NCBI GenBank assembly: GCA_964016885.1
Contig: OZ024742.1
Coordinates: 309,132,001-309,196,000, forward strand
Direction of reading: 5' to 3'
Origin: Eledone cirrhosa
Lineage: Eukaryota
Length of the DNA stretch: 64,000 nt
The translations under genes and the position numbers were made by a program. The notes under the pieces were generated by a model. The model made no database searches and was not told where the DNA came from. It saw only the letters and a program-made list of their open reading frames with translations. Below, one piece after another: positions 8,651 through 63,705 of this stretch. How positions within the stretch are numbered: the first letter of the stretch is position 1; each line of letters opens with the position of its first letter.

Positions 8651-8877
8651 TTAACCCTTTAGCATTTAAACAGGCCATATCCGGCACAAATTGTCTCACC
8701 TTTCTGTTCAAACCAGCCATAACTGGCTGTGCATACTGATATTAAGGTATTGTTCTCAAAATATATAATATCAAAATCTCGTGGATTCGATATTATGTAA
8801 TATAATTATGTAAGATAAAGCCTTTACCACAAAAATACAATAGTATATATAGAGTAATGTAAATGCTAAAGGATTAA
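8651..8877. mobile_element. piggyBac-type MITE family A (~225 bp)
   Basis: Termini TTAA-CCCTTTAGCATTTA ... TAAATGCTAAAGG(G/A)-TTAA. Other copies lie at 11659, 16875, 20501, 49709 and 61034. Confidence 0.8.
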
Positions 8878-11658: not shown

Positions 11659-11876
11659 TTAACTCTTTAGCATTTAAACCAACCATATCTGGCCAGAATT
11701 ATCTCATCTCTTTCCATTCAAACCGACCATAACTGGCTACTCATACTTAGGTTAAGGTATGGTATTGTTCTCAAAATAAATATCAAAATCTTGTAGATTC
11801 GATATTATGTGAGATAAAGTGTTTACCATGAAAATACAATAGTAAATATAGAGTAATGTAAATGGTAAAGGGTTAA
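11659..11876. mobile_element. piggyBac-type MITE family A
   Basis: TTAA-flanked, with the same terminal inverted repeats and body as 8651-8877. Confidence 0.8.
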
Positions 11877-16874: not shown

Positions 16875-17443
16875 TTAACCGTTTAGCATTAAACAGACCA
16901 TATCTGGCCAGAATTCTCTGACCTTTTTCTGTTAAAACTGGCCACTCATACTGATGCTAAGGTATTGTTCTCAAAATAAATATCAAAATCTCGTAGATTC
17001 AATATTATGTGAGATAATTATGTGAGGTAAAGCTTTTACCATGGAAATACAATAGTAAATATAGAGTAATCATCATCATCATCATCATTTCATTTTACGT
17101 CCACTTTTTCCCTGCTTGCAAGGGTGGGACGGGAACTGATTCTGGCATGATTTCTACAGCTGGATGCCCTTCCTAACACCAACCTCATTTACAGTGAGTG
17201 CTGGGTGCTTTTTTGCCGTGGCACCTCCACGACCACTTTGCAGTGGAATGATAGAGACCCCAGTCCCTATCATCTCATTTCTACAGCTGAGTAAACTGGA
17301 GCAATGTGAAATAAAGTCTCTTGCTCAAGGAAACAACACATCACCCGGTCTGAGAATTGAACTCACAACCTTTCGATTGCAAGGCCAATGTTCTAACCAC
17401 TAAGCCATATGCCTCCATAGTAATGTAAATGCTAAAGGGTTAA
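16875..17443. mobile_element. piggyBac-type MITE family A interrupted by a SINE
   Basis: The MITE body 16875-17070 resumes at 17419-17443; agtaat is duplicated at the insertion site. Confidence 0.8.
17071..17417 (-). mobile_element. tRNA-derived SINE with an RTE-derived 3' tail
   Basis: A-box/B-box-like head (TGGCTTAGTGGTTAG...GAGTTCAATTCTC), central ccttgagcaagagactttatttcacattgctcc, a tail matching the LINE at 62070-62340, and a (GAT)n end. Confidence 0.85.
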
Positions 17444-20500: not shown

Positions 20501-20730
20501 TTACTCCTTTAGCATTTAAACTGGACATAGCCGGCCAGAATTCTCTCACCTCTTTCTGTTCAAACCGGTCATAACCGGCTGCTCGTATGTATTGTTAATA
20601 GGTATTGTTTTCAAAATAAATAACATCAAAATCTCGTAGAATCAATTTCATGAGATAATTATCTAAGATAAAGCCTTTACCACAGAAATACAATAGTATA
20701 TATAGAGTAATGTAAATGCTAAAGGGTTAA
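20501..20730. mobile_element. piggyBac-type MITE family A inserted in an old RTE/BovB-like 3' fragment (about 20400-20890)
   Basis: Same TIRs as the other family A copies. The flanks translate to IKERKLKY..GHIIR and RIMWINNI. Confidence 0.75.
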
Positions 20731-48615: not shown

Positions 48616-49708
48616 TTTTTTTTGTAAGTTGTACATAAGTTGATATATATACATATATATATATATTTATATTTTTTTTTATAAGTTTTTATTATAATAC
48701 TTTTGAACATTGGCATGAGGTCTGCAATTTGGAGGAAGGAGAAATTCTATTATATGACTTCAGGACTTATCTGGTACTTTATTTTATCTACCCTGGTAGT
48801 ATGAAAAGCAAAGTTGACTTTGGCAGGATTTGAAATCAGAACATAGAGAGTTGTAACTAAATACTACAAAACATTTCGTCCAATGCCCTATCCACATCTA
48901 CCAACCCACGACCCTTGTATTGTTTTTGATAATGAGCAACATAAAATATAAAGACATCTTTCTCAATCAAAATTAATGTTTGAAGTTTAAACAAGCCAAG
49001 ATGAAAGCCAATATTAATGAAGCTTCAATTTCCTAAAGGTTTTGCTGACAGACTGCAGAGTTAGGTATTTATGGGGTATTTATAGAGGCAGCAGTAGTAA
49101 CAACAGTAGCAGGTAGTAATTGCAGCCTTCCATGAAGATACAACTATTTCTTTTGTTATATTATTATTTAATACAGCAGTATTGACATAAAATTATTGTC
49201 ATTCAATAGCAGAATTGGACTAAAATGCTTCCTTCTGGGATCAATAAAATAAAGTACCAGTAACGTACTAGAGTTGGTCTAATCAACTTCCTGTCACTTA
49301 AAATTTCTGGCACTCTGCCATATCAAAGAATAAAACATCTGATCATCATAAATGAAGTTAAAATCATGTAGATTTACCTCTTAATATCCTCTAACAATTT
49401 AGCAGAAAGTATCTAAAAATAGGTTTGTTAATTCAAATGCTTATAATATCTTTACTATTGAACAGATCACTGACAATTTGCAGTATTAAATCAAAAACTT
49501 ATAGTGCTGCTTTGTACACTGCAAGAATACCTTGCTAATGTGGTTTCATGCAGTACAGATTGTTAAGTTAAATATGAAAAAGAGTTTTTTTGGTGGTACA
49601 CTTAAAAGGTCACCCACTTTAACAACACCACTTAACCTTTTGGCTTCCTTTAGCAGAGTCTAGTCTGTTGCTGTCATTTGAACCAGGGCACCAGTTTGGA
49701 GGTAGCCC

Positions 49709-49904
49709 TTAACCAGCCAGAACTCTTTCACCTCTTTCTATTCAAATAGGCTGTAACTGGCCACTCATACCTACGTTAAGGTATTGTTCTCAAAATAAAT
49801 AACATCAAAATCTCGTAGATTCGACATTATATGAAATAATTATGCAAGATAAAGCCTTTACTGCGAAAATACAATAGTAAATATAGAATAATGTAACGGG
49901 TTAA
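49709..49904. mobile_element. piggyBac-type MITE family A variant with shortened ends
   Basis: TTAACC...GGGTTAA termini with the same body as 8651-8877. Confidence 0.7.
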
Positions 49905-59152: not shown

Positions 59153-59950
59153 CAGGATGCGGACGATATTTGTTCGCAATTTTCAACTGCTAATTTTATG
59201 CAAATTTTTTTACTTTGGTTGTCACTCTTGTCTTCATAAAAACAGTGACTATATTTCCATTATTTATTTTCAGAATAATTGATTATGAATAATTTTGAAC
59301 CTCCAAATTTGTGGAAGAGACACAGAGTTCTTCTTGGAATCCGCACCGGGAGGACAAATAAGACCAGAAGATCAACTCCCAGAACAACAGGTGGCTCGCT
59401 GTCTCATCCAAAGACGTGCCCAGAGTCATGCAGACAAAGTTTCCAGTGACAACATTGGTCTTAGGTGTCGTCAGCAGTGAAGGTGACGTCATGCCATCTC
59501 ACTTCTCCCCTGAGGGCCTCAAGCTGAACACCAATGGCTACATCTGCGTTCTGAGTGAGGTAGTAAAGCCCTGGATCGACCAGGTAGCTGCAGGTAGGCC
59601 GTACATGTGGCAGCAAGACTCAGCGCCCTGCCATACCAGCCGAAAGACCCAAGCCTGGCTGTCAGAGAACTTCGTCAACCACACTTCACCTGACATCTGG
59701 CCTCCCAGCTCGCCTGACTGCAACTCCCTCGTCTTCTTTGTGTGGGGTGCAGTTGAACGAGACACCAACAGTTCTAGCTGCAATATGAAAGACGATCTGA
59801 AGGCCAGGATCACAAGTGCCTGTAGGGGCCTAAGTCGGAGGACAGTGACGAAGGCCTGTAGCCGGTTCCGAGGCTGCTTTGAGGCTGTCATTAAAGCCAA
59901 TGGCAGGTTTATCGAGTGAGATCGAAAGAACAAGCCATGAAGACAAACTG
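59153..59950 (+). mobile_element. Internally deleted Tc1/mariner transposon of the DD37D (maT) type
   Basis: Left end TA-CAGGATGCGGAC and ATG at 59285. ORF 59416-59919 contains WQQDSAPCH...WPPSSPDCNSLV, with 37 residues between the second Asp and the third position (here Val). Confidence 0.85.
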
Positions 59951-60112: not shown

Positions 60113-60493
60113 CTTAGCGGTTAGAGCATTGGCCTTGCAATCGAAAGGTTGTGAGTTCAATTCTCAGACCAGGTGATGTGTTGTTTCTTTGAGCAAGACA
60201 CTTTATTTCACATTGCTCCAGTTTATTCAGCTGTAGAAATGAGATGATAGGACTGGGGTCCCTATCATTCCACTGCAAAGTGGTCATGGAGGTGCCACGA
60301 CAAAAAAAGCACCCAGCCCACACTGTAAAGTGTATGTGTAGGCGCCACGGAAAAAAAGCACCCAGCACTCACTGTAAATGAATTTGGTGTTAGGAAGGGC
60401 ATCCAGCTGTAGAAATCAAGCCAGAATCCCCGTCCCACCCTTGCAAGCAGGGAAAAGCGGACGTAAAATGATGATGATGATGATGATGATGAT
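60113..60493 (+). mobile_element. tRNA-derived SINE with RTE tail (same family as 17071-17417)
   Basis: Near-identical to the reverse complement of 17071-17405, with a (GAT)n tail. Confidence 0.88.
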
Positions 60494-61033
60494 AATGTGT
60501 GTGTGTGTATGTATATATATATGTATGTATATGTGTGTGTGTGTATATGTATATGTGTACATAGTGCAAAGTCATCAATGAAAAACAAAGAACAATTACA
60601 ATGTGTGTTATTAGGTTCACACTTGTTTGAAATGGAAAAATAAGTGTCTTCAATGTATTAGATATTAGTCCTTCATCCAGTTTAACATATTTTATTTGTA
60701 ATCATGCATAACAGGTATTGCCAATACTAGTTCAGAGCTTTAGTTTATTACAATCCGCTCAACTCTAGGATCAATTTCCTCATCAGAAGCAATGGAGATT
60801 AGAATCGGAATATGTTTGTCTCTGAATTATAATTGATTAAAGCTCTGAGTTGCTGGTCCTGTACATTCCCAGATTAAATACCTCCTGTCTCTGGTAAATT
60901 AGTGATATGATAGGGCTAGGGTCCCTATCATTAAATCAATGTCATTAAAACCCCAAAGAAACCTCCTACGAAATGCAACTTTATAGGAGTCCAATTAAAC
61001 CATCACAGGTGTGAATGGTAACAACAAAAAAAG

Positions 61034-62529
61034 TAACCCTTTAGCATTTACATGACCGGATGCCCATGGGAACTCCTGTATGCTGATGACCTCGCACTTA
61101 TAGCTGAATCTATGGTAGAACTAGAGAAGAAATTCCAAACTTGGAAGCAGGGACTAGAAAGAAAGGGTCTCAAAGTCAACATGACAAAGACTAAGGTCCT
61201 TGTAAGTAGTCGAGAAAACAGAACCCAGATCCCCTCAGGAAAATGGCCTTGCTCAGTATGTAGGAAAGGTGTAGGTAGGAACTCCATTCTCTGCTCCAAA
61301 TGCAAACAATGGGTACACAAGAGATGTAGCAGGATCTCAGGAAGCTTAATTAAGAATGTAGGCTTCACATGCAGCAGCTGTGCTGGGACAGTAAGCAGCA
61401 AACAGCCACAGGAAACAAGTACCACCAATCTCTGGGAGGGCTCTGTAGAAACAGTAGACAGCTTCTGCTACCTAGGTGACCGAATTAGCAGCGAAGGTGG
61501 GTGTTCAGAAAGTACAATAACTAGGGTAAGAACGGGATGGAAGAAGTTCAGGGAACTACTGCCACTGCTAGCTGCAAAAGGCTTCTCCCACAAATTGAAA
61601 GGCAGACTGTATGATGTGTGTATCCGAACAGCAATGTTACATGGTAGTGAGACCTGGGCGCTGAAGGAGGAAGACTTTCGTAGATTAGAAAGAAACGAAG
61701 CCTGCATGCTCCGATGGATGTGTAATAGTAATATACACGAACGACAAAGCATAAATGAATTGAGAGAGAGACTGAGCATAAGAGGAATCAAATGCTGTGT
61801 GCAGGAGAGGCGGATGCATTGGTATGGACATGTGATGCGTATGAAGGATGACAGCTGCATAAAAAGGTGCAGATCACTAGAAGTCAATGGAAACCGGAGT
61901 GGAGAGACCCAAGAAGACCTGGGATGAGGTGATAAAAGCCGACCTTACCCAATTACACCTCTCAAAGGCGATGACACACGACCGTGACCTCTGGCGTCAC
62001 GCAGTAATACAGAGTACCCGACCTCCCATGGGTACAAGCTGAAGCATATAGACAATATGCCCCCACACCCTCCCACTGCAAGGTGGTCGTGGAGGTGCCA
62101 CGGCAAAAAAGCACCCAGCCCACACTGTAAAGTGGACGTGTAGGCGCCACGGAAAAAGCACCCAGCACTCACTGTAAATGAGGTTGGTGTTAGGAAGGGC
62201 ATCCAGCTGTAGAAATCAAGCCAAATCAGTTCCCGTATGAGCAAGGCATGGTCAGCCGACCAGACACTGCCCACAACAGGACAACCCGTCTAACCCATGT
62301 TAGCATGGAAGAACGAACGTAAAATGATGATGATGATGATTACTCTAAATTTATTATTGTATTTTCATGGTAAACACTTTATCTCACATAATATTGAATC
62401 TATGAGATTTTGATATTTATTTTGAGAACAATACCTTATCAGTATGAGTGGCCAATTCCAGCCGGTTTGAGCAGAAAGAGATGAGAGAATTCTGGCTGGA
62501 TATGGCTGGTTTAAATGTTAAAGGGTTAA
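61034..62529. mobile_element. piggyBac-type MITE family A (reverse orientation) interrupted by an RTE LINE
   Basis: taaccctttagcatttacat at 61034-61053; the body resumes at 62341 (tactct...) and ends at aaagggttaa, 62529. Confidence 0.8.
61054..62340 (+). mobile_element. 5'-truncated young RTE LINE (second subfamily) with the RT end and an intact PHD-type finger
   Basis: Open 291-aa frame TGCPWELLYADDL...CSVC..CSKC..HKRC..CSSC..FCYLG..LHGSETW..WYGHVMRM, followed by a (GAT)n tail. Confidence 0.95.
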
Positions 62530-63164: not shown

Positions 63165-63705
63165 CCATAACTATATTACTTATAAATATATTTCATAAGT
63201 ATAAAATATATAACACTACATATCATAAGTATATTACATAATATTATAATATATAAGACTATATCATAACTATATAACATACAGTGTTTTATATCATAGC
63301 TATATTACATATACTGCTATAAAATAACACTATATACCATAAATATATGTTATATAACACTATATCTACTATTTAACATACAGTGCTATATATCATAACT
63401 ATATTATATATAATTGTTTCTACTTTTGGCACAAGGCCAGCAATTACCCAGTGCATTACTGGTACTTTATTTTATCGACCCCGTAAGGATGAAAGGCAAA
63501 GTTAACCTCGGCGGGATTTTAACTCAGAATGGCAAGGGCCGAAACTATGCGTCAAAGCATGGTGTCCGACCCTCTACCGATACTGCCAATTCACCGTTCC
63601 TTATAGCTATATTACATATAATGCTATATAATAACTGTATAATATATAACACTATATCATAACTACATTACATACAGAGCTATATATCATAGCTATATAA
63701 TATAT
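63165..63705. repeat. AT-rich degenerate minisatellite (tatatcataactatattacatata) interrupted by a SINE
   Basis: Recurring motif on both sides of 63411-63597. Confidence 0.75.
63411..63597 (-). mobile_element. tRNA-derived SINE (18979 family)
   Basis: Reverse complement of 18979-19161. Confidence 0.88.

What the first reader, a model, noticed from the sequence alone, without database searches (positions are those of the whole stretch)
17061..17443. A SINE and a LINE inserted at the identical nucleotide of two copies of the same piggyBac-type MITE
Seen: at 17061-17080 the MITE reads AGAGTA|ATCATCATC, the reversed SINE tail. At 62330-62346 the LINE tail joins as GATGATGAT|TACTCT, the same junction in the same relative orientation, about 20 bp from the MITE end. 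The 5' junctions differ (a 6-bp agtaat duplication versus 0-2 bp) and the inserts differ (SINE versus LINE), so these are independent events. Two of the six MITE copies here are hit at this site. Inference: the RTE machinery may prefer this subterminal MITE site, possibly through endonuclease specificity plus tail microhomology. That would be a transposon-targeting-transposon relationship in which the MITE could also carry its passengers.
Basis: partly seen in the sequence, partly recalled or inferred. Interest (0 to 1): 0.75.

Follow-up and report, generated by a model that had tools for sequence, protein, structure and literature searches.

The report
Retrotransposon landing hot spot in MITE
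One nucleotide just inside the end of a small cut-and-paste transposon has been hit independently by copy-and-paste retrotransposons at least 143 times in this genome (about 1% of copies), likely because the transposon's end happens to supply the short T-run and AT that the retrotransposon enzyme favours anywhere, and no case was found of the transposon carrying such passengers to new sites.

Summary
Both window inserts end in an (ATG)n tail joined to ATTACT at position 16 of a 221-bp piggyBac-type MITE. The exact junction occurs 143 times genome-wide, in about 1.0% of comparable copies and 70-280 times the background. The inserts are independent SINEs and RTE-type LINEs.

It is the strongest of several hot spots in the MITE, not a dedicated target. 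It fits the published RTE signature: a T-run about 10 nt upstream of the cut, plus tail microhomology. The terminal repeat supplies TTT at -12..-10.
- Tandem-array units lacking that TTT are spared (at most 5 of 75 events, against 30,565 array versus 7,342 terminal units).
- Non-MITE sites carry TT there (9 of 17).
- The rule predicted a hot nucleotide in an unrelated SINE (57 of 107 junctions), though about 20-fold weaker per copy.
- The mirror site at the other end is cold (0 of 27).

An unrelated ATT-tailed SINE hits the same base by its own microhomology. No transposed composite was found: hosts are 84% alike, passengers 96%. Earlier notes of this scan found the same MITE's arrays to be a shared landing spot.

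The parts
16879..17439 (-). piggyBac-type MITE copy 1, interrupted at its position 16; TTAA at 16875-16878 and 17440-17443
   Evidence: terminal repeat shared with PF13843-encoding elements
17071..17418 (-). full-length young SINE with a tRNA-like head, a 3' part shared with the RTE-type LINE, and an (ATG)n tail
   Evidence: other copies 98-100% identical; A/B-box-like head read from the sequence, motif recalled
17065..17070 (-). 3' copy of the 6-bp target duplication (ATTACT on the minus strand), MITE positions 16-21
17419..17424 (-). 5' copy of the 6-bp target duplication
17434..17436 (-). TTT of the terminal inverted repeat, at -12..-10 from the insertion point (inferred upstream determinant)
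61037..62525 (+). piggyBac-type MITE copy 2, interrupted at its position 16; left GTAA at 61033-61036, right TTAA at 62526-62529
61054..62338 (+). 5'-truncated RTE-type LINE: end of the reverse transcriptase, PHD finger, C-terminal part, 3' UTR and (ATG)n tail; AT duplicated at 61052-61053 and 62339-62340
   Evidence: full-length relative L471 has one 1040-aa ORF
61040..61042 (+). TTT of the terminal inverted repeat, at -12..-10 from the insertion point
8651..8875 (-). uninterrupted MITE copy (approximate ends)
11659..11875 (-). uninterrupted MITE copy (approximate ends)
20506..20729 (-). uninterrupted MITE copy (approximate ends)
49707..49903 (-). degenerate MITE copy with damaged ends

Best explanation
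Position 16 of this old piggyBac-derived MITE is a single-nucleotide insertion hot spot for (ATG)n-tailed LINEs and their SINE, likely because it happens to match the general, two-part target preference of the RTE-type enzyme rather than because the LINE seeks out the MITE. Shown: the hot spot, the independence of the events, the need for the terminal-repeat context upstream, and the TT at -11/-10 at targets outside the MITE. Inferred: the LINE protein binds the T-run supplied by the terminal repeat (TTT at -12..-10) and nicks the bottom strand one helical turn away, between C15 and A16. The freed ...AT-3' end would pair with the RNA's (AUG)n tail to prime reverse transcription, and the second-strand cut falls 0-8 nt downstream. 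A second, unrelated ATT-tailed SINE lands on the same base through its own C|ATTATT microhomology. Insertions came after the host copies had stopped moving, so the composites are dead nested fossils.
For: Rate. 143 exact junctions; 7,342 intact comparable terminal units; 39 of 75 events with a visible left end match the same string, giving 1.0%. Independence. 97 junction rows hold 17 full-length SINEs and truncated pieces of several LINE subfamilies, with duplications from -1 to 12 nt, mode 6. Natural mutation of context. 72-bp array inner units keep ACATTTAC|ATTACT but lack TTT at -12..-10; they number 30,565 yet hold at most 5 of 75 position-16 events, while position 28 is hit in arrays 8 times against 6 in terminal units (hand-sorted; Fisher p=4e-5). 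Host point mutations. TT is broken in 0 of 65 hit hosts and 4 of 48 intact hosts (p=0.03). Outside the MITE. TT at -11/-10 in 9 of 17 SINE target sites against 16% background (p=6e-4). Other MITE hot spots. Positions F28, F67, F80, F126, F140, R70 and R199 also have TT at -11/-10. Prediction. The same motif in the unrelated ATT-tailed SINE takes 57 of 107 junctions in a 40-nt scan, and all 9 hosts with the site fully visible have TT (base rate 71 of 112). Mirror position at the other terminal repeat: 0 of 27. Published match: PMC6007223.
Against: The short motif does not account for the whole effect. The predicted site in the other SINE is hit in only 57 of 195,147 copies (0.03%), about 20-fold below 1.0% after allowing for hosts without TT, and by my rough estimate about 9-fold for the young SINE alone; host age and region explain only part. 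The full motif TT-N6-TAY|AT matched 0 of 27 non-microsatellite and 1 of 65 microsatellite SINE sites. ATTAC is not generally favoured downstream (1 of 174), and A at -2 was not enriched (4 of 9). Some hot sites (R23-R29, F95, F103-108) lack TT at -11/-10 in the consensus. Duplications here (mostly 0-6) are shorter than the 7-15 bp quoted for RTE elements. An automated all-LINE reconstruction gave only a weak T excess (0.44 and 0.48 in 25 noisy sites). The outside sample is small (17), and many of its sites come from loci selected for ATT/ATC junctions.
Confidence: 0.75

Rival explanations
1. The LINE family is partly specialised on this MITE (a weak Tx1L/Tx1D-like relation), through longer sequence recognition, a protein bound to the left end, or its PHD finger reading chromatin at MITEs.
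For: Per-copy rate is about 20-34 times that of a look-alike site in another repeat. The full short motif is rare among outside targets. The ORF carries a PHD finger.
Against: 0 of 57 random junctions and 4 of 287 listed ATT/ATC junctions are at this site; 110 of 275 unselected junctions are in microsatellite-like DNA. The mirror end is cold. Several LINE subfamilies and an unrelated SINE use the site. Summed over all scanned positions the MITE carries about 3 insertions per 100 copies, close to the genome average per base (my estimate).
Confidence: 0.12
2. The site is hot mainly because of regional accessibility, DNA structure (cruciform or bend at the terminal repeat) or preferential survival of insertions that spare the terminal repeat, not because of enzyme sequence preference.
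For: MITE-containing loci have about twice the tail-junction density of random DNA (135 vs 71 per Mb). Two unrelated retroposon systems use the same base.
Against: Neighbouring AT positions 10, 24 and 26 of the same copies are almost unused (at most 2 of 39). The mirror stem-loop edge is cold. The second SINE's use tracks a host point variant: about 58 ATTATT vs 14 ATTACT events against 17 vs 131 hosts, which is microhomology, and it shows no TT signal (8 of 56).
Confidence: 0.07
3. The recurring junction reflects one or a few composite MITE-plus-passenger elements that were spread by a piggyBac transposase.
For: 51 of 75 composites keep both terminal repeats. piggyBac elements with open transposase frames and a near-identical terminal repeat exist in the genome. 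Three composites (L299, L328, L331) share the same 5' junction.
Against: Those three have host identity 0.83-0.87 against SINE identity 0.95-0.97. Across 17 full-length SINEs the means are 0.83 and 0.96. The most alike host pair among 66 (0.946) carries different inserts. The only true duplicate (L289) arose by tandem-array expansion.
Confidence: 0.03
4. The two window junctions coincide by chance.
For: The co-occurrence of two hits in one window is itself a chance draw (P about 0.0015).
Against: 143 exact junctions, reversed-pattern control 0; 20 of 39 listed events in the first 31 positions are at this base.
Confidence: 0.01

Closest known systems
RTE-clade insertion signature (Nishiyama and Ohshima 2018, PMC6007223; abstract, Results and the integration section of the Discussion read)
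   Same: A T-run about 10 nt upstream of the duplication start; first duplicated base matches the microsatellite tail (A in animal RTEs); SINE shares the LINE 3' end.
   Different: Duplications here are shorter (mostly 0-6 vs 7-15 bp). The paper shows the signal as a genome average; here it is resolved at single sites with natural context changes. The sections read cover plants and vertebrates, not invertebrates.
Single-nucleotide hot spots of nested insertion in human TEs, e.g. AluSx in MER5A1 and MER45A, Alu in Alu (Levy et al. 2010, PMC2836564; abstract and hot-spot section read)
   Same: Non-LTR retroposons piling up at one position and orientation inside DNA-transposon fossils; 82% of insertion types there are non-uniform.
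   Different: L1 machinery and poly(A) tails there; RTE-type machinery with (ATG)n tails and a piggyBac-type host here.
Xenopus Tx1L targeting the DNA transposon Tx1D (passages in PMC1950540)
   Same: A non-LTR element found at a fixed site in a DNA transposon.
   Different: Tx1L has a highly specific endonuclease and integrates at a unique target; here the site takes around 1% or less of the family's insertions and several families share it.
Octopus RTE-2_OV (Petrosino et al. 2022, PMC9115989; passages read)
   Same: Single ORF with endonuclease, reverse transcriptase and a zinc-binding module, in what is probably a related animal (organism inferred, not tested).
   Different: 1109 aa with a finger called C2H2 there; 1040 aa with a Pfam PHD match here. 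Sequences were not compared.

Membership tests
piggyBac-derived MITE | TTAA target duplication | tested here: met
   TTAA on both sides in 5 of 6 full random copies; window copies (one side mutated to GTAA)
piggyBac-derived MITE | short terminal inverted repeats starting CCC, no coding capacity, high copy number | tested here: met
   14-bp repeat, 221-bp consensus; 13,217 exact left ends and 25,122 exact internal anchors
piggyBac-derived MITE | ends shared with a piggyBac transposase-encoding element | tested here: met
   4 of 7 PF13843 loci examined (L473-475, L477) show the terminal repeat at both ends (17 of 18 nt or 17 of 19 at one end) and subterminal similarity; L478 shows one end
RTE-clade LINE | single ORF with APE-type endonuclease then reverse transcriptase, no separate ORF1 | tested here: met
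   L471: one ORF of 1040 aa, PF03372/PF14529 + PF00078; window piece is 91-94% identical to the family
RTE-clade LINE | 3' microsatellite tail shared with a SINE | tested here: met
   (ATG)n tail; SINE 175-291 is 93% identical to the LINE 3' UTR
RTE-clade LINE | T-run near -10 and first duplicated base matching the tail | tested here: met
   9 of 17 SINE sites with TT at -11/-10, p=6e-4; AT follows the tail in 174 of 275 junctions
RTE-clade LINE | target duplication of about 7-15 bp | tested here: not met
   -1 to 8 nt in 74 of 75, mode 6; range quoted in PMC6007223
RTE-clade LINE | reverse transcriptase groups with named RTE elements in a tree | not tested
   no named RTE reference came back; the clade label rests on architecture and recall
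Tx1L/Tx1D-type site-specific nesting | most insertions of the family lie at the one target | tested here: not met
   0 of 57; 4 of 287
Tx1L/Tx1D-type site-specific nesting | sequence-specific endonuclease in vitro | not testable with these tools
   needs a nicking assay
composite (passenger-carrying) DNA transposon | same host-plus-insert at different TTAA flanks with equal host and insert divergence | tested here: not met
   0 among 75 events with a visible left end; 96 of 143 loci fetched
nested-TE insertion hot spot (Levy et al.) | non-uniform, orientation-specific insertion positions along the host consensus | tested here: met
   with denominators

The most novel reading that the evidence does not exclude
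The left end of this piggyBac MITE is recognised by the PHD-bearing RTE-type LINEs through more than the generic motif (longer sequence, DNA shape, bound transposase or chromatin mark). That would make it an incipient safe-harbour target placed 1 bp inside the terminal repeat, which leaves both ends intact so that a related, still intact transposase could occasionally move the composite.
Probability: 0.1. Interest if true: 0.7.

Novelty: new member of a known kind. Interest (0 to 1): 0.38.

Why it matters
The hot spot gives a natural mutagenesis series for RTE-type target choice. Terminal units, array units, point-mutant hosts and a look-alike site in another repeat all point to the T-run one helical turn upstream of the cut, which makes the Nishiyama-Ohshima binding model directly testable with a 30-bp substrate. 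RTE-type enzymes are of interest as insertion tools (my own knowledge). For repeat annotation, identical junctions in this MITE are not evidence of shared descent or of a composite element. It is not a new transposon-on-transposon system unless the unexplained few-fold excess proves MITE-specific.

Tried and rejected
Unfiltered self-BLAST of the window was swamped by microsatellites.

The first MITE consensus collapsed onto the 72-bp array unit and was replaced.

The 800-kb random sample held too few MITE copies (28 BLAST pieces) to map breakpoints, so exact genome-wide pattern counts were used instead.

Automated target-site reconstruction for all LINE copies was noisy: several 'other' rows were mis-assigned MITE sites, and it was not used as support.

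A downstream ATTAC or ATAC preference as an extra determinant was not supported, nor was A at -2.

A cruciform or generic terminal-repeat-edge effect was rejected. Composite mobilisation was rejected for the loci seen.

ARAGORN found no tRNA gene in the window, so the tRNA origin of the SINE heads rests on motif recall. PDB and protein searches gave no named RTE relative.

Rows dropped: 22 of 97 position-16 rows had no left end within reach or inserts over 1.5 kb. Five more with doubtful left ends were left out. 72 microsatellite and 21 MITE copies of 121 SINEs, and 11 with duplications under 3 nt, were left out of the 17-site set. No denominator was measured for the right-end forward scan. 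The denominator is inflated by 44-bp arrays.

Literature: eight searches showed no paper describing this MITE hot spot; the library lacks most subscription papers. No supplements were read, and those of PMC6007223 (sequence logos, duplication lengths) bear on the comparison.

Full report
Observation. The window lies on contig C3 of a 3.0-Gb animal genome; an octopus is likely, from recall of the repeats and from earlier notes, and was not tested. It holds six copies of a 221-bp MITE with 14-bp terminal inverted repeats and TTAA duplications. Copy 1 (16879-17439, minus strand) contains a SINE at 17071-17418 with a 6-bp duplication. Copy 2 (61037-62525, plus strand) contains a truncated LINE at 61054-62338 with a 2-bp or zero duplication. 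In both, an (ATG)n tail joins ATTACTCT at MITE position 16, one base inside the left terminal repeat.

The elements. Of seven piggyBac transposase (PF13843) loci examined, four show the same terminal repeat at both ends plus subterminal similarity to the MITE, so 'piggyBac-type' holds. The LINE piece encodes the end of a reverse transcriptase and a PHD finger. A full-length relative has one 1040-aa ORF with APE-type endonuclease, reverse transcriptase and PHD. That architecture, the microsatellite tail and the SINE sharing its 3' UTR at 93% fit the RTE clade; no tree with named references was possible, and the duplications are shorter than published for RTEs.

Is it a hot spot? The exact tail-plus-site string occurs 143 times, with 0 for the reversed control. 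I fetched 96 of these loci (97 rows). Of 75 with a visible left end, 70 are terminal units and 39 match the exact left string, against 7,342 intact copies of that string. That gives 1.0% per copy, 70-280 times the background of 3.6e-5 to 1.5e-4 per strand-position. Inserts range from bare tails to pieces over 1.5 kb, from 17 full-length SINEs and several LINE subfamilies, with duplications of -1 to 12 nt. They are independent events.

Is it the only one? No. Gap scans along both strands, tallied by hand from the listed rows, gave the following. Positions 1-31 forward: 20 of 39 listed events at 16, 17 at 28, 2 elsewhere (about 276 events in all). Positions 47-112 forward: 109 events, about 23 of 100 at 80, 19 at 103-108, 8 at 67 (25,122 anchors). 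Reverse strand near the left end: 93 events, 26 at 23, 14 at 29, 11 at 70 (13,217 anchors). Right half: 39 and 31 events. Position 16 is the strongest site (1.0%), ahead of 28 (roughly 0.4%), R23 (0.2%) and 80 (0.1%).

Is the MITE a dedicated target? No. Position 16 takes 0 of 57 junctions in 800 kb of evenly spaced DNA and 4 of 287 listed ATT/ATC junctions. Of 275 unselected non-MITE junctions, 174 continue with AT and 110 lie in microsatellite-like DNA. The mirror position at the right terminal repeat has 0 of 27 events.

Why this base? PMC6007223 reports that RTE-related retroposons insert about 10 nt downstream of a T-stretch, with the first duplicated base matching the tail. At position 16 the terminal repeat puts TTT at -12..-10 and the target starts with AT. 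Four tests agree. (1) Inner units of the MITE's 72-bp tandem arrays keep the seven bases before and everything after the site but lack the TTT. They outnumber terminal units 30,565 to 7,342 yet hold at most 5 of 75 events, whereas position 28, whose TT is internal, is hit 8 times in arrays and 6 in terminal units (p=4e-5). (2) TT is broken in 0 of 65 hit hosts and 4 of 48 intact hosts (p=0.03). (3) Outside the MITE, 9 of 17 SINE target sites have TT at -11/-10 against 16% (p=6e-4). (4) The motif was found in an unrelated high-copy SINE and predicted to be hot there: 57 of 107 junctions in a 40-nt scan fall on the predicted base. Of 20 such loci fetched, 12 showed the left side; all 9 with the complete site have TT, against 71 of 112 hosts in general.

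What is not explained. That outside site is hit in only 57 of 195,147 copies, about 20-fold less than position 16 after allowing for hosts without TT. The host is younger (0.93 vs 0.85 identity to majority) and MITE loci have twice the junction density, but a few-fold excess remains, about 9-fold for the young SINE alone before the regional factor, by my rough estimate. The full motif TT-N6-TAY|AT matched 0 of 27 non-microsatellite SINE sites, ATTAC is not generally favoured, and some hot sites lack the TT. A longer T-run and the second T-run at -5..-3 are candidate causes; MITE-specific recognition is not excluded.

A second system at the same base. The ATT-tailed SINE has 221 junctions in positions 1-31, about three quarters at position 16 (hand count of 100 rows), with longer duplications (8-21 bp at most sites genome-wide). 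It favours hosts reading ATTATT: about 58 versus 14 events, against 17 versus 131 hosts, and in most loci with a visible 5' copy the variant is on both sides. It shows no TT signal (8 of 56). So two machineries converge on one base for different reasons, and this case shows directly that tail-target microhomology sets insertion frequency.

Passenger transport. 51 of 75 composites keep both terminal repeats, and piggyBac elements with open 561-aa frames and a near-identical repeat exist, so movement is conceivable. None was found: among 66 hosts the mean pair identity is 0.84 and the closest pair carries different inserts; full-length SINE passengers are 0.96 alike in hosts 0.83 alike; three composites with the same 5' junction have hosts only 0.83-0.87 alike. 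The one duplicate arose by array expansion.

Comparison and verdict. Single-base hot spots of retroposons in DNA-transposon fossils are the rule in the human genome (PMC2836564). True nesting specificity, as of Tx1L in Tx1D (PMC1950540), is not met. Eight literature searches showed no description of this site. Earlier notes of this scan on other DNA read the same MITE's arrays as a shared landing spot. This is a real, well-supported hot spot and a new example of a known phenomenon, with an unusually clean natural test of the RTE target model. Interest 0.38.

Noticed in passing
window 61250-61381 (+); L471: A PHD finger sits directly after the reverse-transcriptase core of the LINE ORF (Pfam E 4e-7); many unnamed relatives in the protein database carry it too. 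It could read chromatin and bias insertion.
   Followed up: partly
L008, L014, L016, L018, L027, L189-L200: The MITE's 5' part forms 69-72-bp tandem arrays with 30,565 exact inner units genome-wide, more than the terminal units.
   Followed up: partly
G000:C1:11994840-12004081: A second array type with a 44-bp period built from the MITE's 3' part.
   Followed up: no
window 63405-63600 and L341-L370: A very high-copy ATT-tailed SINE (at least 195,147 copies) inserts at C|ATTATT with long duplications and hits MITE position 16; its partner LINE was not identified.
   Followed up: partly
L473, L474, L475, L477: piggyBac elements whose terminal repeats nearly match the MITE's; at least seven places have a 561-aa open frame, suggesting a young family.
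   Followed up: partly
L289:1880-2420: A truncated SINE inside an array unit was duplicated with the array expansion, the only repeated composite seen.
   Followed up: yes
window 59340-59920 (+): A stretch that looks like a Tc1/mariner transposase fragment (motifs recalled, not tested).
   Followed up: no
window 60113-60492 (+): A second SINE copy with an internal duplication of about 50 nt, inserted in TA/TG microsatellite; the 3' UTRs of the LINEs show the same tandem module.
   Followed up: no
L141-L170: Most of the 30 youngest SINE copies sit in (TA)n microsatellites, the family's main target class.
   Followed up: partly
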